Virus record (IMG/VR): IMGVR_UViG_3300021963_000030
Length of the DNA: 64,000 nucleotides
Origin: a virus
Direction: 5' to 3' (one strand)
Shown here: positions 18 to 5,049 of the stretch, in pieces
Layout of the letters: every line of letters starts with the position of its first letter
Position numbering within the stretch: position 1 is the first letter of the stretch
Translations under genes and position numbers: made by a program
The notes under the pieces: model-generated
What the model was told of the DNA's origin: nothing
Database searches by the model: none
What the model saw: only the letters and a program-made list of their open reading frames with translations

Positions 18-95
18 GGCTACGTAGACCAATTGGGAGGAGTCGTCTATCTCAAAAATAGAATAGTGCTGGTTCGAATCCAGTCGTAGCTACCA
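18..95 (+). tRNA. tRNA-Leu(CAA), short variable loop
   Basis: Acceptor GGCTACG/CGTAGCT, anticodon arm TCTAT-CTCAAAA-ATAGA, T-loop TTCGAAT, A73, encoded CCA. Confidence 0.9.
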
Positions 96-103
96 ATTTT
101 AAC

Positions 104-188
104 GGGTGTGTGGATGAGGGAAACTGGAACAACCGCAATACTTAAAATATTGTATCCTCTGTAAGTTCGAATCTTACCACACCTACCA
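104..188 (+). tRNA. tRNA-Leu(TAA), long D-loop, no paired variable arm
   Basis: Acceptor GGGTGTG/CACACCT, anticodon arm CAATA-CTTAAAA-TATTG, T-arm GTAAG-TTCGAAT-CTTAC, CCA. Confidence 0.9.
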
Positions 189-194
189 ATTTAT

Positions 195-272
195 GGGCTG
201 GCATGTTCTAAGGCTAAGCGAGACTGATTTGCAATCAATCTGATGTGAGTTCGATTCTCACCTGGTCCACCA
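195..272 (+). tRNA. tRNA-Ala(TGC) copy 1
   Basis: Anticodon loop TT-TGC-AA, G3:U70 alanine identity pair in GGGCTGG/CTGGTCC, T-loop TTCGATT, A-CCA. Confidence 0.85.
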
Positions 273-281
273 ATTTCAAAA

Positions 282-346
282 GTGACTATAAAATCATATT
301 CGGTCGTATGATCATTGAGTGTAATTGACCTTTCGGGTGTAGTCAC
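282..346 (+). ncRNA. Candidate small cloverleaf-like structured RNA or tRNA remnant
   Basis: 9-bp closing stem GTGACTATA/TGTAGTCAC, inner hairpins ATCATA/TATGAT and ACC-TTTCG-GGT; no CCA and no clear anticodon loop. Confidence 0.4.
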
Positions 347-364
347 ACATACCCAGATTTTTAT

Positions 365-452
365 GGAAGTAGTCCGGTTGGTCGAGGAAAGCGTCTTGAA
401 AACGCCTGGGGCCTAAAAACCCTCGCAGGTTCGACTCCTGCTGCTTCCGCCA
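365..452 (+). tRNA. tRNA-Ser(TGA)
   Basis: Acceptor GGAAGTA/TGCTTCC, G73, loop CT-TGA-AA, long variable arm, T-loop TTCGACT, CCA. Confidence 0.95.
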
Positions 453-458
453 TTTTTT

Positions 459-551
459 GGAAGGTAGACGAATAGTTAGGTAGTCGTAGCAGTTTGCTAA
501 ACTGCCGGGGCCTAAAAACCCCTGAGGGGGCAGCACCCTCACCTTCCGCCA
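459..551 (+). tRNA. tRNA-Ser(GCT) with non-canonical T-loop GGCAGCA
   Basis: Anticodon arm GCAGT-TTGCTAA-ACTGC, long variable arm, T-stem GAGGG/CCCTC, G-CCA. Confidence 0.9.
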
Positions 552-557
552 CTTTAT

Positions 558-632
558 GGGCTCTTGGTGCTAGTGGTAACACGGCTGATTTGCATTCAGC
601 AGTCGCCAGTTCGACTCTGGCAGGGTCCACCA
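558..632 (+). tRNA. tRNA-Ala(TGC) copy 2
   Basis: Anticodon arm GCTGA-TTTGCAT-TCAGC, G3:U70, T-loop TTCGACT, A-CCA. Confidence 0.9.
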
Positions 633-642
633 ATTTAATGAC

Positions 643-716
643 GCGGGTGTGATGTAACGGTAGCCTACATCCTTGCCAAGGACGATGAGAGGGTTCGATT
701 CCCTCCACCCGCTCCA
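643..716 (+). tRNA. tRNA-Gly(GCC)
   Basis: Acceptor GCGGGTG/CACCCGC, U73, loop TT-GCC-AA, T-loop TTCGATT, CCA. Confidence 0.95.
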
Positions 717-731
717 ATTTAATAAAAATAT

Positions 732-854
732 ATGCCAAATAGAACATCGCATTATAGAAAGACGCATACTAGAAAAACAAAAAGTGGAAAAACCGTTAGG
801 GTTAATTCTACACAAGTAAAAGGTAGTTCAACAAAGCGTCGAAAGAAAAAGTAA
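732..854 (+). CDS. 40-aa highly basic peptide MPNRTSHYRKTHTRKTKSGKTVRVNSTQVKGSSTKRRKKK (not in the ORF track)
   Basis: ATG..TAA ORF that fills the spacer between tRNA-Gly and tRNA-Gln; similar to the peptide at 3769-3867. Confidence 0.7.
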   Translation: MPNRTSHYRKTHTRKTKSGKTVRVNSTQVKGSSTKRRKKK

Positions 855-863
855 GTTTTCAAC

Positions 864-937
864 TGGGGATTTGCATAATGGTAGTGCAGGAGACTTTGGA
901 TCTCTTAGTGAAGGTTCGATTCCTTCATCCCCTGCCA
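864..937 (+). tRNA. tRNA-Gln(TTG) copy 1, canonical elbow
   Basis: TGGGGAT/ATCCCCT, G73, loop CT-TTG-GA, D-loop AATGGTA, T-loop TTCGATT. Confidence 0.9.
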
Positions 938-944
938 ATTTTAT

Positions 945-1020
945 CGGGATGTAATGTCAAAAGTAGACGGCCTGTTTTGGAGACAGGAGGTTGAGATTGC
1001 AAAATTCTCCATCCCGACCA
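945..1020 (+). tRNA. tRNA-Pro(TGG) with A37 and non-canonical T-loop TGCAAAA
   Basis: Acceptor CGGGATG/CATCCCG, anticodon arm CCTGT-TTTGGAG-ACAGG, A-CCA. Confidence 0.9.
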
Positions 1021-1030
1021 TTTTATTAAC

Positions 1031-1105
1031 TGGGGATTGATTGTAATAGTAGCAAATCAGACTTTGAATCTGAGAGCATCGGAGCGTAACCGGTATCCCC
1101 TGCCA
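1031..1105 (+). tRNA. tRNA-Gln(TTG) copy 2 with non-canonical T-loop AGCGTAA
   Basis: TGGGGAT/ATCCCCT, anticodon arm TCAGA-CTTTGAA-TCTGA, T-stem ATCGG/CCGGT, G-CCA. Confidence 0.9.
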
Positions 1106-1108
1106 TTT

Positions 1109-1350
1109 TTTGACACAAGCGACTCTACGCTGGTGTAAATAACACTAGAGGAAGTTCGCTGCTGCACAGCAGATGATTGGGAGACTTAAACGTCGTTAAC
1201 ACCACAAATTAGCAGTAATCCTAAATAACCCGAGTGTAGTGCTGCACGTTGAAGGGTGAGGTTGGAGCAGTTGTTTTTAACGAACAACCAGTAGCAATAC
1301 TGAGAGAAATGTAGGGATAAAACAGAACAGCGGCTATGGCTGTGTCAAAA
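1109..1350 (+). ncRNA. rnpB: Compact RNase P RNA (phage-encoded)
   Basis: P1 TTTGACACA..TGTGTCAAA; P2 CTCTAC(1123-1128)/GTAGGG(1311-1316); P3 TGGTGT/ACACTA; CR-I GAGGAAGTTCGCTG pairs with CR-V ACAGAACAGCGGCT to form P4 with the bulged U; CR-IV-like AGAGAAAT; GCAA tetraloop hairpin. Confidence 0.85.
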
Positions 1351-1399
1351 CATCTTCTTAAAAAGAAAAATGTGACTACTTATTCTGTAGTAACATACT

Positions 1400-2116
1400 A
1401 TGAAATTAGCATATCAATACGACGAAGATTTCGTTCCGCTAAAAGATAACTTTTTAAAAAACATTCATGACGAATTTGAGTTTATAGAAAAAAAACTTGA
1501 AAAACCTAAATTTTCTCAGGGTGCTACACAATCAGACCAGTTTGGTGGTGGTATAGATTATTGGATTGGAAACACAAAATATCTATTGAACATAATAAAT
1601 TCATGTGAACCCAATGAATACTTTATGTTTTCCGACGTTGATATTGTATTTTTTAAACCAATATTGCCTACTATAAATAAACTAATTAGTGACAATAGTT
1701 ATGATGCTTTATTCTCCAGAGAGATTCCATATGGGGAAGTTCCATGGCAAGGTGGTGATGTTCCTGGAAATATCAACTTTGGTTTTTTTGTAATGAAGGC
1801 TTGTGATCGATCAAGAAGATTTTTGGAAGAGTTATTAATATCGATTGAAAAAAATAGAATACTAAATCAAGTTATAGTTAATAAGTTATTGTATGGTTCT
1901 CCTAAATATAATCTTAATTGGAATCTACTGCCGATAGAGTTTACCACTACAAATTTTTTTGGGCCCGTATTACCAACTGACTTTAATAAGGATCATGCTC
2001 TTGTTAATAAAAATTCTTTAACATTTCATGCAATCTATCCGATTGATCCGTATGAAAAAATGAAGTTATTGAAACTTGCAATTGATACTGTGAATAAAGA
2101 TGAAAATAGTAATTAA
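1400..2116 (+). CDS. Nucleotide-diphospho-sugar transferase (GT-A fold, GT77-like)
   Basis: FSDVDIVF DxD motif, INFGFFVMK strand and NQVIVN helix typical of this family. Confidence 0.7.
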   Translation: MKLAYQYDEDFVPLKDNFLKNIHDEFEFIEKKLEKPKFSQGATQSDQFGGGIDYWIGNTKYLLNIINSCEPNEYFMFSDVDIVFFKPILPTINKLISDNSYDALFSREIPYGEVPWQGGDVPGNINFGFFVMKACDRSRRFLEELLISIEKNRILNQVIVNKLLYGSPKYNLNWNLLPIEFTTTNFFGPVLPTDFNKDHALVNKNSLTFHAIYPIDPYEKMKLLKLAIDTVNKDENSN

Positions 2117-2807
2117 TTCAAATATAAGTTACAAATTACCATTAAAATTGCTTTTGGAGTCAATTTTAAAGTCTGATATTAAAAACATATCCGATGTTAT
2201 TGTAGTATTATCCGAGTCAGATCGAGAATCTACACCCGAATTAAAAGAAATAAATTCAATAACGGACATAGATTCATCAGAAAAAGTAGTAGTGATTGAG
2301 TCTGTCAGAAGAAATTATGATTATTGTGGGTTTGACGTATTATACAAATATTATGGTAATAAACTAATTGACTCAAATGAGTATTTGTATTTACACGATA
2401 CTTCCACGGTTGACTCTGATTTTTATAGTAAAATTACCAAGTTTGCAGACCTATCAGAAGATGTAATTATTTCGCCATTGAAGCAAAATTCAAATATTAT
2501 CATCTTTCAGAAGAACATCATCACAAAATACAAAGATAATTTTAGTGTTGATATGAACAAGTATCAAGCAACGTGGGCAGAAGTTTCCGATGGTGTTTTT
2601 GTAGATAATAAATGGGTGACAAATATTTTAAAATTCGGTGTTGTGAAATCTGTCGATGAACGTGTATTGACTGGAAATACGGATGTATACAATACGGGGT
2701 GTTATAGATCCATCTTATACTACAAAGATTTTGGTATAAGCAAGTATATATTCTGGAATAATGATGGTGATGTAAAAGGAAAATTAAGAGGGCCTACGTT
2801 ATCATAA
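2100..2807 (+). CDS. Glycosyltransferase-like protein
   Basis: GT-A-like N-terminus (KIVINSNISY), YLYLHDT motif; overlaps the upstream GT gene. Confidence 0.45.
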   Translation: MKIVINSNISYKLPLKLLLESILKSDIKNISDVIVVLSESDRESTPELKEINSITDIDSSEKVVVIESVRRNYDYCGFDVLYKYYGNKLIDSNEYLYLHDTSTVDSDFYSKITKFADLSEDVIISPLKQNSNIIIFQKNIITKYKDNFSVDMNKYQATWAEVSDGVFVDNKWVTNILKFGVVKSVDERVLTGNTDVYNTGCYRSILYYKDFGISKYIFWNNDGDVKGKLRGPTLS

Positions 2808-2810
2808 TCT

Positions 2811-2897
2811 TGTGGTGGTTTGGCCACAGCGTGAGGGACACGATACACCCCTGTATGTCTGACCCGGACGAATCTGATCCAGATAGGATAGGGTTGA
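2811..2897 (+). ncRNA. Candidate structured intergenic or leader RNA
   Basis: GC-richer than its flanks; hairpins TGTGGT/GCCACA, GGG/CCC, GTC/GAC and ATCTG/CAGAT. Confidence 0.3.
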
Positions 2898-2907
2898 ATT
2901 TAAAGTT

Positions 2908-3267
2908 ATGAATAATACAAATAGATTACATATTGTGCCCAAAGGATGGGGATTTGAAAAGTGGATTGTCAACAACGAAAAGTATTGCGGCAAGATTCTG
3001 TATCTTGTCAAAGACCGTAAGTGTAGTTGGCATTATCACAAGGTCAAAGATGAAACCTTTTATGTTCAAAGTGGTAAAATTGAATTACGTTATGGTAAAC
3101 ATGATGATATCAAAATGTCTACGTCTGTGATTTTAAACAAGGGTGACCATTTTCATATTCCAATTGGATTAAAGCATCAAATGTATGCTATTGAGGATAC
3201 TGAACTATTTGAGTTTAGCACCCAACATTTTGACGAAGATAGCATTCGTCTTGAAAAGGGAGATTAA
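2908..3267 (+). CDS. Cupin-fold sugar isomerase-like protein
   Basis: KGWGFEKWI..CSWHYHKVKDETFYV and HIPIGLKHQM cupin metal-binding motifs. Confidence 0.8.
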   Translation: MNNTNRLHIVPKGWGFEKWIVNNEKYCGKILYLVKDRKCSWHYHKVKDETFYVQSGKIELRYGKHDDIKMSTSVILNKGDHFHIPIGLKHQMYAIEDTELFEFSTQHFDEDSIRLEKGD

Positions 3268-3272
3268 AAATT

Positions 3273-3399
3273 TGATCATTGGTGTATAGAATTAACGCAC
3301 ACTACCTATTAGCTGGTAGAGGAGATGGAAGTTGACGGGTTAGACAGTAAGAGGAACGTTTCGTGAAATCCCCGTATATTCGCAAGTCATGGTCATCCA
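3273..3399 (+). ncRNA. 127-nt tRNA-like RNA with acceptor stem and CCA end but an expanded 3' half
   Basis: TGATCAT/ATGGTCA 7-bp stem followed by T-CCA, D-like arm GTGT/ACGC, CTACC/GGTAG arm, long insert closed by ACGGG/CCCGT. Confidence 0.55.
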
Positions 3400-3407
3400 A
3401 TTTGTAG

Positions 3408-3435
3408 TTGACAAAGTAAAAAAACGTGGTAAACT
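3408..3435 (+). promoter_or_regulatory. Sigma70-type promoter
   Basis: TTGACA-16 nt-TAAACT with TG upstream of the -10 box. Confidence 0.7.
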
Positions 3436-3441
3436 AGTGTT

Positions 3442-3669
3442 ATGAAAAAGATGATTGTGTCGTTGATTTTGATTGGCAACGTTCTAATTGCTAGTGAAGT
3501 TATCAAGGAAGTAAAGATCGAACCTATCACGGTTTACGTTGTCCGTAATGGTGATTCGGATCGATCAATTCATAAAGTTTTTTTGACAGAGAAGTCAGCT
3601 AAGAAGTATTGTGATACATACAAGGAAAGTCACAATTATGAATGTGAAGTTCTTGTGTTGACCGAATAA
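3442..3669 (+). CDS. Small protein with a signal-peptide-like N-terminus
   Basis: MKKMIVSLILIGNVLIA hydrophobic leader; directly downstream of a promoter. Confidence 0.7.
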   Translation: MKKMIVSLILIGNVLIASEVIKEVKIEPITVYVVRNGDSDRSIHKVFLTEKSAKKYCDTYKESHNYECEVLVLTE

Positions 3670-3682
3670 TACTTATTAGTGT

Positions 3683-3756
3683 GCGGGAGTGATGTAACGG
3701 TAGCCTGGGGCTCTTCCAAAGCCCACGAAAGGGTTCGATTCCCTTTTCCCGCTCCA
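3683..3756 (+). tRNA. tRNA-Gly(TCC)
   Basis: GCGGGAG/TTCCCGC, U73, anticodon arm GGGCT-CTTCCAA-AGCCC, T-loop TTCGATT, CCA. Confidence 0.95.
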
Positions 3757-3768
3757 CTTTTAAATATT

Positions 3769-3867
3769 ATGGCAACTAAAGGAATGAGACGACAACACTT
3801 ACGTAAAACCAAAAAAGGTTATTGCAATGTTAAAAGTTGTAGTGTAAAAAAGCGTAAGAAGAAGTAA
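3769..3867 (+). CDS. 32-aa highly basic peptide MATKGMRRQHLRKTKKGYCNVKSCSVKKRKKK
   Basis: ATG at 3769 after tRNA-Gly(TCC); the longer ORF-track call overlaps the tRNA; paralog of 732-854. Confidence 0.7.
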   Translation: MATKGMRRQHLRKTKKGYCNVKSCSVKKRKKK

Positions 3868-3873
3868 TTTAAT

Positions 3874-3945
3874 GGCTGGGGTTTCAGCAAACGACGAATC
3901 CTCATAAGGTTTGTTAAGTGGGGGCAGCACCCATACCAGCTACCA
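3874..3945 (+). tRNA. Atypical tRNA with CAT anticodon (Met or Ile2)
   Basis: Acceptor GGCTGG/CCAGCT, mini D-arm GTTT-CAGC-AAAC, 8-bp anticodon stem around CT-CAT-AA, T-loop GGCAGCA, A-CCA. Confidence 0.75.
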
Positions 3946-3968: not shown

Positions 3969-4353
3969 GGGCGTGTTCAGGTTTCGATTTAAGGATGCGT
4001 TCATGCTAGGCACGTAGAGGATGATAGTTGGCCTCTTTAAACGTCTATCAAAACATAACTGCTGAAGAAAACGTAGTTAGCTATGACTTCTCTTACGAGA
4101 ACACCGTAGCACTTGCAGCCTAATTAAAGGTCGCACATTTGATCAATGATTGTTCGATAGTTGATTGAATGTTATTATCGGACTATAATTGGAATGATTG
4201 ATTTGCTCATCCAATCTACCTACTTGTAAATCTTAAGAAACAAATTTTTGATGATTTAGATTTTGTTTCCTATCAAATACAAATCATACAAGCGTGTAGT
4301 CTGGTATGGATCACTTCTTAAAGACGCGAGTTCGATTCTCGCCACGTCCACCA
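3969..4353 (+). ncRNA. ssrA: tmRNA with tag peptide (A)AEENVVSYDFSYENTVALAA
   Basis: Acceptor GGGCGTG/CACGTCC with G3:U70, T-arm GCGAG-TTCGATT-CTCGC, ACCA end, resume context ATAACT-GCT at 4061, tag ORF ending ALAA-TAA at 4123. Confidence 0.95.
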
Positions 4354-4635: not shown

Positions 4636-5049
4636 ATGAAATCCTACAGTTTGCTATACGAAGCTAGTATATATGATTATTTGGTTTGGGAGCCACAAGG
4701 CAAACTCAAACATATTGCCGATACACTTGATACCTATAATAGTTTTGGATCGGATGATTTGTTCAGAGGTATGTCCAAGAAGGAGTTGGATGTGTTACAA
4801 AAACACGGCAAAGTGACTTCCAAGGGTAAGGGTAACACACGTAACATCTACGGAAGTTATCTAGCGAGCGATTTTAAATTGAGTGCTAGATTTGCATTAG
4901 TAAACTATCGTGATAAAGGTGAGGGTGTAATAATTGTGGTAGATAAAAATAAGCTGCCAGACTTAAAAAGTGTTGATCCAGGCAATTTCGTTACTAGTTA
5001 TATACCGATAGAGGCAGTAAAACAAATTATAGATTTATCAAAGTTATGA
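4636..5049 (+). CDS. ADP-ribosyltransferase-fold protein, 137 aa (start revised to ATG 4636)
   Basis: LFRGMS..SYLASDFKLSARFA..GVIIVVD resembles the ART core strands; TATTTATA at 4623; N-terminus MKSYSLLYE. Confidence 0.5.
   Translation: MKSYSLLYEASIYDYLVWEPQGKLKHIADTLDTYNSFGSDDLFRGMSKKELDVLQKHGKVTSKGKGNTRNIYGSYLASDFKLSARFALVNYRDKGEGVIIVVDKNKLPDLKSVDPGNFVTSYIPIEAVKQIIDLSKL

What the first reader, a model, noticed from the sequence alone, without database searches (positions are those of the whole stretch)
459..3945. Four tRNAs share a recoded elbow: G55 in the T-loop co-varies with A18 in the D-loop
Seen in sequence: Ser(GCT) 459-551 and the CAT tRNA 3874-3945 have T-loop GGCAGCA, Pro(TGG) 945-1020 has TGCAAAA and Gln(TTG) 1031-1105 has AGCGTAA. 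All replace U55 with G and keep C56. Their D-loops read AG where GG is universal: Pro AAAAGTA, Gln2 AATAGTA, CAT CAGC (Ser-GCT contains both AG and GG). The tRNAs with canonical TTCG T-loops (Gln1 AATGGTA, Gly AACGGTA, Ala TAGTGGTA) keep GG. Gln2 also swaps U54-A58 to A54-U58. Established: G18-psi55 and G19-C56 form the elbow read by TruB/TrmA, the RNase P S-domain, T-boxes and the L1 stalk. Inference: this is a compensated A18-G55 elbow rather than decay, giving functional tRNAs that elbow-reading host enzymes or defence nucleases may not recognise.
Basis: partly seen in the sequence, partly recalled or inferred. Interest (0 to 1): 0.82.

Follow-up and report, generated by a model that had tools for sequence, protein, structure and literature searches.

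The report
Phage tRNAs with a rewired elbow
Four tRNA genes in this T4-like phage replace tRNA's near-universal G18–U55 corner contact with a matched A18–G55, and they look like working tRNAs that lack the U54-U55 site used by modifying enzymes and by at least one anti-phage nuclease.

Summary
Ser-GCT (459-551), Pro-TGG (945-1020), Gln-TTG copy 2 (1031-1105) and a CAT RNA (3874-3945) have G55-C56 T-loops and AG in the D-loop. All eight canonical tRNAs in the window keep GG and TTC.

These are not decaying genes. Relatives in IMG/VR keep them through compensatory stem changes, and their discriminator bases fit each amino acid.

I analysed 591 distinct CCA-ending phage tRNAs with 7-nt T-loops.
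- U55-C56 goes with a GG D-loop in 346 of 353.
- G55-C56 goes with AG in 195 of 198; 174 of these have no GG (Fisher p about 1e-105).
- Where C56 is replaced, position 19 is the Watson-Crick partner in 32 of 37.
- At least 10 same-anticodon lineages switched state independently.

The best reading is a compensated alternative elbow in translation-competent tRNAs. It removes U55, and often U54. Escape from T-loop-cutting defence nucleases is the likeliest driver, but that step is inferred, not shown.

Standard tools miss about half of these genes. I found no description of this in the searchable literature. This scan has already reported the same A18/G55 rewiring on other DNA at least seven times, in phage tRNA arrays and bacterial accessory tRNAs.

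The parts
459..551 (+). tRNA-Ser(GCT), type II, recoded elbow. D-loop 472-483, T-loop GGCAGCA 529-535 (G54, G55 = 530, C56 = 531, G58), discriminator G, CCA encoded.
   Evidence: Orthologues in L004, L029, L008 and L080 have compensatory changes in the acceptor, anticodon, variable and T stems and an invariant T-loop.
945..1020 (+). tRNA-Pro(TGG), recoded elbow. D-loop AAAAGTA 959-965 (A18 = 962, G19 = 963), T-loop TGCAAAA 998-1004 (G55 = 999, C56 = 1000), 3-nt connector TAA, A73, CCA.
   Evidence: In family alignment A3, 97% of cells are paired and 6 pairs are compensated. The canonical orthologue in Ralstonia phage RsoM2USA has AATCTGGTA/TTCGAAT.
1031..1105 (+). tRNA-Gln(TTG) copy 2, recoded elbow. 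D-loop AATAGTA 1045-1051 (A18 = 1048, G19 = 1049), T-loop AGCGTAA 1083-1089 (A54, G55 = 1084, C56, U58), U1 and U72 mismatched, G73, CCA.
   Evidence: (RF00005, 36.8 bits). Nearly identical in L026 and L029. Other Gln variants appear.
3874..3945 (+). 72-nt CAT-anticodon tRNA-like RNA. No 8-9 connector, D-arm GTTT-CAGC-AAAC (A = 3886, G = 3887), 8-bp anticodon stem, 2-nt variable region, T-loop GGCAGCA 3923-3929 (G55 = 3924).
   Evidence: Identical over all 72 nt in 15 IMG/VR loci, plus 3 loci that differ by one base. The only two variant sites turn the outermost G-U pair of the long stem into A-U or G-C. The divergent homologue L078 c6106 keeps all helices through compensation. A 21-mer from its T-arm and acceptor found only one chance coding match among 185,579 prokaryote genomes.
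864..937 (+). tRNA-Gln(TTG) copy 1, canonical elbow (D-loop AATGGTA, T-loop TTCGATT). Internal control with the same anticodon.
   Evidence: 59.5 bits.
18..716 (+). Tight tRNA array with spacers of about 6-12 nt. It holds canonical Leu-CAA, Leu-TAA (104-188), Ala-TGC, Ser-TGA, Ala-TGC and Gly-GCC, with Ser-GCT embedded, so the variant is necessarily co-transcribed with canonical neighbours.
3683..3756 (+). tRNA-Gly(TCC), canonical elbow.
1109..1350 (+). Context only: RNase P-like RNA directly after Gln copy 2. CR-I-like GAGGAAGTTCGCTG at 1148-1161 and CR-V-like ACAGAACAGCGGCT at 1322-1335 can form a P4-like pairing with a bulged U.
   Evidence: the P4-like pairing co-varies across phage lineages (CGCTG/CAGCG, CGATG/CATCG, CGCGT/ACGCG). 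There is no Rfam RNase P hit.
3969..4353 (+). Context only: phage tmRNA with a canonical TTCGATT T-loop.
   Evidence: RF00023, 122.6 bits.

Best explanation
The four genes are genuine, selectively maintained tRNAs. The CAT one has an aberrant body. Their L-shape is locked by an alternative set of elbow contacts.

- A18-G55 replaces G18-Psi55.
- G19-C56 is kept. In relatives it is swapped to other Watson-Crick pairs.
- The intraloop 54-58 pair is U-A, A-U or G-G.

Two point changes (G18 to A, U55 to G) convert a canonical phage tRNA to this form, and the conversion has happened many times in phage tRNA arrays. Acceptor, anticodon, T-stem and discriminator features stay as in canonical isoacceptors. 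I therefore infer that these tRNAs are charged, bound by EF-Tu and used by the ribosome.

The recoding removes U55, and often U54. TruB and TrmA cannot modify these tRNAs. Enzymes that need the U54-U55-C56 motif, notably T-loop-cleaving defence tRNases of the Schlafen/Cash type, should not cut them. I take escape from such T-loop-directed nucleases to be the most likely selective driver.

Shown: the sequences, their conservation, the compensation in stems, and the 18:55 and 19:56 covariation. Inferred: direct A18-G55 pairing geometry, charging and decoding, and nuclease resistance.
For: Structure and conservation
- Cloverleaves at the stated coordinates.
- Compensatory stem changes in the Ser-GCT and Pro-TGG families (97% of cells paired, 6 pairs compensated, 0 of 500 shuffles as high).
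- The CAT RNA is identical in 15 loci and has a compensated divergent homologue.

Covariation
- 591 distinct CCA-ending tRNAs have 7-nt T-loops.
- U55C56 goes with GG in 346 of 353.
- G55C56 goes with AG in 195 of 198, and 174 of those lack GG (Fisher p = 5.6e-106).
- Shuffled D-loops contain AG only 68% of the time.
- 32 of 37 tRNAs with C56 replaced have the Watson-Crick partner at 19, in both 18:55 states.

Independence
- 10 same-anticodon clusters that are at least 80% identical outside the loops contain both states.
- Variants are not closer to variants of other anticodons.

Orthologue pairs differ only at position 18 and the T-loop.

Signs of translational use
- Discriminator bases of variants match canonical tRNAs of the same amino acid.
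- Recently switched Leu variants keep identical T-stems, which carry the EF-Tu determinants.
- In jumbo-phage arrays, variants are the only phage copy for many anticodons.

Nuclease link: the CbCash defence nuclease cuts 5' of U55, U54 or U55 single mutants abolish cleavage, and the status of phage tRNAs is left open (PMC13462974).

Directionality: loss of U55 (214 tRNAs) is far commoner than replacement of C56 (37), and 54/58 recoding is concentrated in G55 tRNAs.

Yeast deep mutational scanning shows that single changes at G18, U55, G19, C56, U54 and A58 are not tolerated. This explains the near absence of intermediates (PMC4117946).
Against: - There are no expression, processing, charging or structural data, and the host is unknown.
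- The phages keep many canonical-elbow tRNAs, so any nuclease escape would be partial.
- The nuclease link is by analogy to one enzyme characterised heterologously.
- The A18-G55 geometry is unverified. The yeast scan reported rescue of G18A by U20G only, and did not mention U55G.
- Loci were fetched with variant-specific patterns, so frequencies (though not the covariation) are biased.
- tRNA calls rest on ARAGORN's permissive mode plus a CCA filter.
- About 4 of 198 G55 tRNAs lack A18, and 24 have AGG-type loops where the register is ambiguous.
- The CAT RNA's 4-nt D-loop may not reach the T-loop at all.
Confidence: 0.55

Rival explanations
1. Neutral compensated drift. A18-G55 is simply an acceptable alternative elbow. 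Phage tRNAs reach it because they are under relaxed constraint: redundant with host tRNAs, short-lived, with no need for TruB/TrmA modification, T-box sensing or quality control. No specific advantage is involved.
For: - Phages keep both canonical and recoded copies of the same anticodon: Gln-TTG in the window, Pro-TGG in L029, Asn and Glu in G001.
- Rare intermediates exist, such as G18G19 with G55 in L093 and L098.
- Other elbow pairs (19:56, 54:58) also drift.
Against: - The change is strongly directional and recurrent: at least 10 independent switches, and 214 G55 against 37 non-C56 tRNAs. Yet 19:56 swaps are ordinary Watson-Crick compensations and should be easier.
- 54/58 recoding clusters with G55.
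- The same state is fixed in 44 anticodon families.
- Single mutants at these sites are non-functional in yeast, so valley crossing without selection should be rare.
Confidence: 0.25
2. Adaptation to phage-specific tRNA maturation. The recoded elbows co-evolved with phage-encoded processing machinery, for example the RNase P-like RNA at 1109-1350 that lacks room for a normal specificity domain. Together they form a partly orthogonal processing route.
For: An RNase P-like CR-I/CR-V pair with compensatory P4 changes sits inside the tRNA arrays of the window, L004, L006, L026, L029, G001 and G002. All of these carry recoded tRNAs.
Against: - No Rfam RNase P hit.
- The L037/L030/L045 contig has recoded tRNAs but no such motif in the part held.
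- Streptomyces phage TunaTartare has a single recoded tRNA-Phe among canonical ones.
- G19-C56, the face RNase P stacks on, is retained, so host RNase P may work anyway.
Confidence: 0.1
3. Non-translational tRNAs. As with staphylococcal non-proteogenic tRNA-Gly, the G55 tRNAs are kept away from the ribosome and serve another purpose, such as amino-acid donor, decoy for tRNA-binding defence proteins, primer or regulator.
For: - The only characterised bacterial tRNAs with TGC/TGT in the T-loop are non-proteogenic (PMC7826273).
- The CAT RNA has a very aberrant body and is ultraconserved.
- Several variants duplicate a canonical isoacceptor.
Against: - Variants span 44 anticodon families.
- They are the sole phage copy for many codons.
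- They keep canonical anticodon loops, discriminators and GC-rich T-stems, identical to canonical orthologues in recent switches.
- Unlike the staphylococcal tRNAs, they keep a covarying 19:56 pair and a specific A18.
Confidence: 0.07
4. Decaying tRNA pseudogenes or gene-finder artefacts.
For: Default ARAGORN misses all four, and Rfam scores three of them below threshold.
Against: Conservation across many contigs, compensatory stem changes, encoded CCA, embedding in tight arrays, and precise two-site covariation.
Confidence: 0.02

Closest known systems
Canonical bacterial and phage elongator tRNA elbow (G18-Psi55, G19-C56, T54-A58; Rfam RF00005)
   Same: Cloverleaf, 5-bp T-stem with 7-nt loop, purine 57, G19-C56 outer pair, identity elements, encoded CCA, and placement in phage tRNA arrays.
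   Different: G18 becomes A and U55 becomes G, always together. U54-A58 is often replaced by A-U or G-G. U55 cannot be pseudouridylated, and A54 or G54 cannot be methylated. Half of these genes escape standard ARAGORN.
Staphylococcal non-proteogenic tRNA-Gly (PMC7826273)
   Same: The T-loop reads TGC/TGT instead of TTC, so there is no Psi55.
   Different: Those are Gly-only tRNAs tied to Fem transferases, tuned away from EF-Tu, with U rather than G19 in the D-loop. Here there are 44 anticodon families, a conserved A18, a covarying Watson-Crick 19:56 pair and ordinary T-stems.
Phage tRNAs that evade anticodon nucleases through anticodon-loop changes or overexpression (van den Berg et al., PMC10264068; Azam et al., PMC11555353)
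   Same: The principle is the same: a phage-encoded tRNA altered at the site a tRNA-targeting defence reads, while staying functional.
   Different: The altered site is the T-loop/D-loop elbow, not the anticodon loop. It needs a second compensating change. No nuclease has been tested against these tRNAs.
tRNAPyl and metazoan mitochondrial tRNAs with non-canonical elbows (PMC7609411)
   Same: They lack G18G19 and T-Psi-C. The CAT RNA shares the small D-loop, long anticodon stem and short variable region.
   Different: In those tRNAs the D/T-loop contact is lost or idiosyncratic. Here it is retained in recoded form, as the 19:56 covariation shows.
Prokaryotic Schlafen (Cash) T-loop tRNase of type III CRISPR systems (PMC13462974)
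   Same: It reads exactly the motif these tRNAs have lost: UUC, cleaved 5' of U55. U54 or U55 mutants are resistant.
   Different: This is the candidate selective agent, not a relative. No link to these phages or their hosts has been shown.

Membership tests
Elongator tRNA (Rfam RF00005) | Cloverleaf with 7-bp acceptor, 5-bp anticodon stem, and 7-nt anticodon loop with U33 and purine 37 | tested here: met
   for Ser-GCT, Pro-TGG and Gln copy 2. The CAT RNA deviates: 8-bp anticodon stem, 4-nt D-loop, no 8-9 connector.
Elongator tRNA (Rfam RF00005) | Score at or above the family gathering threshold (29 bits) | tested here: inconclusive
   Gln copy 2 scores 36.8 bits. Ser-GCT, Pro-TGG and CAT are not reported even at E up to 10. 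The model penalises exactly the recoded positions.
Elongator tRNA (Rfam RF00005) | G18-G19 in the D-loop and U54-U55-C56 in the T-loop | tested here: not met
   AG in the D-loop and N-G-C in the T-loop in all four. This is the finding itself.
Elongator tRNA (Rfam RF00005) | Identity elements appropriate to the anticodon (discriminator base and others) | tested here: met
   G73 for Ser and Gln (Gln also with U1 and U72 mismatched), A73 for Pro. Across the data set, variant discriminators match canonical ones per amino acid.
Elongator tRNA (Rfam RF00005) | Aminoacylation, EF-Tu binding and ribosomal decoding | not testable with these tools
   Needs tRNA-seq with a charging assay, or in vitro assays.
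Staphylococcal-type non-proteogenic tRNA | T-loop TGC/TGT instead of TTC | tested here: met
   Definition; sequences.
Staphylococcal-type non-proteogenic tRNA | Restricted to one amino acid (Gly) used by a non-ribosomal transferase, with T-stem pairs that weaken EF-Tu binding | tested here: not met
   44 anticodon families. Recently switched Leu variants have T-stems identical to their canonical orthologues. The EF-Tu determinants are the first three T-stem pairs.
tRNA pseudogene | No purifying selection: broken stems, no compensatory change, no conservation | tested here: not met
Mitochondrial-type or tRNAPyl-type tRNA without D/T-loop pairing | Loss of the 19-56 tertiary pair, with no covariation between the loops | tested here: not met
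   G19-C56 is kept in all four. In relatives, 32 of 37 C56 replacements have the complementary base at 19.

The most novel reading that the evidence does not exclude
Large phages run a partly orthogonal tRNA subsystem. Its tRNAs have an elbow systematically recoded (A18-G55, alternative 54-58 and 19-56 pairs), which makes them immune to T-loop-directed defence tRNases and independent of host T-loop modification. In some lineages these tRNAs are processed by a phage-encoded RNase P RNA without a specificity domain, embedded in the same array.
Probability: 0.3. Interest if true: 0.9.

Novelty: new variant of a known kind. Interest (0 to 1): 0.78.

Why it matters
G18-Psi55, G19-C56 and T54-A58 are among the most conserved contacts in biology and are usually treated as invariant. 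These phage tRNAs supply a natural covariation record showing a second workable solution, A18-G55, with free Watson-Crick choice at 19:56.

This has three consequences.
- It gives structural biologists a defined alternative elbow to solve and to use in orthogonal tRNA design.
- It reveals an annotation blind spot: about half of such genes are missed by a standard tRNA finder, so phage tRNA repertoires are under-counted.
- It makes an open question testable. A 2026 study of T-loop-cutting Schlafen defence nucleases left open whether phage tRNAs are targeted. These tRNAs lack precisely the U54/U55 determinants that enzyme needs.

Tried and rejected
- Pseudogene or artefact reading: rejected on conservation, compensation and covariation.
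- One ancestral variant tRNA spread by anticodon remoulding: rejected. Variants are closer to canonical tRNAs of the same anticodon (0.77-0.94 identity outside the loops) than to variants of other anticodons (0.63-0.75, apart from closely related isoacceptor pairs such as Lys-TTT/Lys-CTT at about 0.8).
- The CAT RNA as a captured host gene: a 21-mer scan of 185,579 prokaryote genomes gave one chance coding match in Oceanobacillus.
- Close cultured relatives as a test bed: the nearest by portal protein are Microcystis phage Mel-JY01 and Flavobacterium phage immuto. RF00005 finds only 1 and 3 tRNAs in them.
- The tRNA arrays of Listeria phage A511, Cronobacter phage Pet-CM3-4 and Xanthomonas phage BUDD have no G55 T-loops. 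BUDD does have a few 54/56 variants that keep U55.
- The only cultured-phage example I found is tRNA-Phe of Streptomyces phages TunaTartare and Faust.
- Rfam support for the neighbouring RNase P-like RNA: none.
- The count of structure pairs cannot score A-G as a pair, so the 18:55 statistics come from my own scripts.
- Literature searches for A18/G55, U55G/G18A, phage T-loop variants and L-arrays found no prior description.

Full report
**What is in the window.** The window is an AT-rich (about 36% GC) segment of a distant T4-like myovirus. It carries a portal protein, baseplate wedge proteins and PhoH. The nearest cultured relatives by portal protein are Microcystis phage Mel-JY01 (55%) and Flavobacterium phage immuto (52%). 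No whole genome is held. Positions 18-1105 and 3683-3945 hold a tRNA array, followed by a tmRNA gene.

Default ARAGORN and Rfam find eight ordinary tRNAs: Leu-CAA, Leu-TAA, two Ala-TGC, Ser-TGA, Gly-GCC, Gly-TCC and Gln-TTG. Each of the four ends in an encoded CCA. They sit a few bases from canonical neighbours, so they must be transcribed with them.

**The observation.**
- Ser-GCT and the CAT RNA have T-loop GGCAGCA.
- Pro-TGG has TGCAAAA.
- Gln copy 2 has AGCGTAA (A54, G55, C56, U58).
- The D-loops read AAAAGTA, AATAGTA, CAGC and, for Ser, ATAGTTAGGTAG.
- All eight canonical tRNAs of the window have TTC and GG.

Rfam scores only Gln copy 2 above threshold, at 36.8 bits.

**Are they real genes?** Two pattern scans of IMG/VR brought in about 100 loci from related and unrelated large phages.
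- Ser-GCT orthologues (L004, L029, L008, L080) differ by compensated pairs in the acceptor, anticodon, variable-arm and T stems. The T-loop stays invariant. The window's GG in the D-loop is not conserved in L004, L029 and L008.
- The Pro-TGG family keeps 97% of cells paired, with six doubly changed pairs, and 0 of 500 shuffles reach that value. This family includes a canonical orthologue in Ralstonia phage RsoM2USA.
- The CAT RNA is identical over all 72 nt in 15 loci. Its only two polymorphisms both convert the outermost G-U of an 8-bp anticodon stem into a Watson-Crick pair. A divergent homologue (L078) keeps every helix through compensation. A 21-mer from the CAT RNA found only a chance coding match among 185,579 prokaryote genomes.

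Decay is therefore excluded.

**The covariation.** I ran ARAGORN in permissive mode on all loci and kept only predictions followed by discriminator plus CCA. That left 634 distinct tRNAs, of which 591 have 7-nt T-loops.

| T-loop 55-56 | Total | D-loop with GG | D-loop without GG |
|---|---|---|---|
| U55-C56 | 353 | 346 | 7 |
| G55-C56 | 198 | 24 | 174 |

- The association gives Fisher p = 5.6e-106.
- Of the 198 G55-C56 tRNAs, 195 contain AG. Of the 24 that have GG, 22 also contain AG, typically as AGG.
- Shuffled D-loops contain AG only 68% of the time.
- The outer elbow pair also co-varies. Of 37 tRNAs in which C56 is replaced, 32 have the Watson-Crick partner at 19. Examples are U55-U56 with GA, U55-A56 with GT, G55-A56 with AT, G55-U56 with AA, G55-G56 with AC and U55-G56 with GC.
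- The intraloop 54/58 pair occurs as U-A, A-U, G-G or C-A. The non-U-A forms are concentrated among G55 tRNAs. Loops such as ATCGTTA or GTCAGCA keep U55 and also keep GG, so 18:55 tracks independently of 54:58.

**Independence.** With both loops masked, ten same-anticodon clusters at 80% identity or more contain both states. They are Leu-TAG 0.94, Leu-CAA 0.91, Pro-TGG twice, Lys-TTT, Ile-GAT, Met, Ser-GCT, Arg-TCT and Lys-CTT. Variants are no closer to variants of other anticodons than to canonical tRNAs of their own.

Orthologues with D-loops of equal length pin the change to the first G of GG.
- Glu: ATCGGCTA against ATCAGCTA.
- Phe: AGATGGAT (Listeria phage A511, a Karamvirus, Xanthomonas phage BUDD) against AGATAGAT (Streptomyces phage TunaTartare, IMG/VR G002).
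- Thr: TAACGCTAT with TTGAACT against TAAAAGTAT with AGCATTA.

**Signs of translational function.**
- Variant discriminators match canonical ones for the same amino acid: Gly U, Cys U, Gln G, Thr U, Asn G, Asp G, Lys A.
- Recently switched Leu variants have T-stems identical to their canonical orthologues. The first three T-stem pairs set EF-Tu affinity.
- In jumbo-phage arrays (G001, G002, G004), 30-50% of tRNAs are recoded, and for many anticodons the recoded gene is the phage's only copy.

**Mechanism and driver.** Established knowledge:
- G18 contacts Psi55, G19 pairs with C56, and T54 pairs with A58.
- Single mutations at any of these positions kill a yeast suppressor tRNA.

Inference:
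- G55 can present O6 and N1-H where U presents O4 and N3-H, and A18 can pair with it, for example as an imino A-G pair. This keeps the mutual intercalation of the loops.
- The consequence is loss of U55, and often U54. TruB and TrmA then have no substrate.
- CbCash, a Schlafen-family effector of type III CRISPR systems, cleaves tRNAs 5' of U55 at the UUC motif and is blocked by single U54 or U55 mutations. Its authors leave open whether phage tRNAs are targeted.
- Loss of U55 is strongly directional and recurrent, while ordinary 19:56 swaps are much rarer. I therefore favour selection for escape from T-loop-directed nucleases over neutral drift. This step is not shown.

**Context.** Directly after Gln copy 2 lies an RNA with RNase P CR-I-like and CR-V-like motifs. 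Their P4-like pairing co-varies across phage lineages, and the spacing between them is only 151-345 nt. Rfam gives no RNase P hit. A processing enzyme without a specificity domain would fit the recoded elbows, but co-occurrence is not strict.

**Known or new.** I found no paper describing A18-G55. The nearest precedents are:
- staphylococcal non-proteogenic tRNA-Gly, with TGC/TGT T-loops;
- tRNAPyl and mitochondrial tRNAs;
- phage tRNAs that evade anticodon nucleases.

After I had reached these results, a look-up of this scan's notes showed that the same A18/G55 rewiring has been reported on at least seven other stretches of DNA, in phage tRNA arrays, bacterial accessory tRNAs and a Parcubacteria tRNA-Pro. 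Those are unchecked notes that agree with mine. I did not test their bacterial examples.

**Practical point.** Default ARAGORN detects 96% of the canonical tRNAs in the set but only 48% of the G55 tRNAs.

Noticed in passing
window 1109-1350; also L004, L006, L026, L029, L055 (G001), L062 (G002) 4878-5042: RNase P-like RNA inside the tRNA arrays. CR-I-like GAGGAAGTTCG... and CR-V-like ACAGAA...CGGCT motifs can form a P4-like pairing that shows compensatory changes in three lineages. The two motifs lie only 151-345 nt apart. No Rfam RNase P hit.
   Followed up: partly
window 3874-3945; L078 c6106-6177: The CAT RNA has an unusual body: no 8-9 connector, 4-bp D-stem with 4-nt loop, 8-bp anticodon stem and 2-nt variable region. 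It is identical in 15 contigs. A divergent homologue supports every helix through compensation. Its function (Met, Ile2 or non-translational) is unknown.
   Followed up: partly
window 104-188: tRNA-Leu(TAA) with a canonical elbow is missed by default ARAGORN but found by Rfam at 41.7 bits.
   Followed up: yes
window 1350-2807 and 2908-3267: Two ORFs (one a nucleotide-diphospho-sugar transferase) and a cupin gene are insertions relative to close relatives (L006, L026, L029). In those relatives the flanking non-coding stretches 1197-1349, 2807-2907 and 3268-3400 are contiguous, with 1197-1349 and 2807-2907 90-95% conserved. They may form one or more structured RNAs.
   Followed up: no
L008 661-736; L055 c14348-14423 (same phage group, not the window): A canonical-elbow tRNA with anticodon CTA (an amber reader) sits in a related jumbo-phage array. 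It may be a suppressor or a sign of stop-codon recoding.
   Followed up: no
L053 5994-6066 (Streptomyces phage TunaTartare, NC_070784 77322-77393); Faust NC_070783 75858-75930: A cultured-phage example of the recoded elbow: tRNA-Phe with D-loop AGATAGAT and T-loop TGCGTTA. It is annotated in TunaTartare, but the identical gene is unannotated in Faust.
   Followed up: yes
all loci: Possible intermediates: a few tRNAs have G55 with an intact GG and no AG (L093 1557 Met, L098 4354 Tyr), and one has U55 with AG only (L020 1292). This hints that the U55-to-G change may come first.
   Followed up: no
window 3969-4353: Phage-encoded tmRNA (RF00023, 122.6 bits; tag AEENVVSYDFSYENTVALAA) lies immediately after the CAT RNA.
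   Followed up: no
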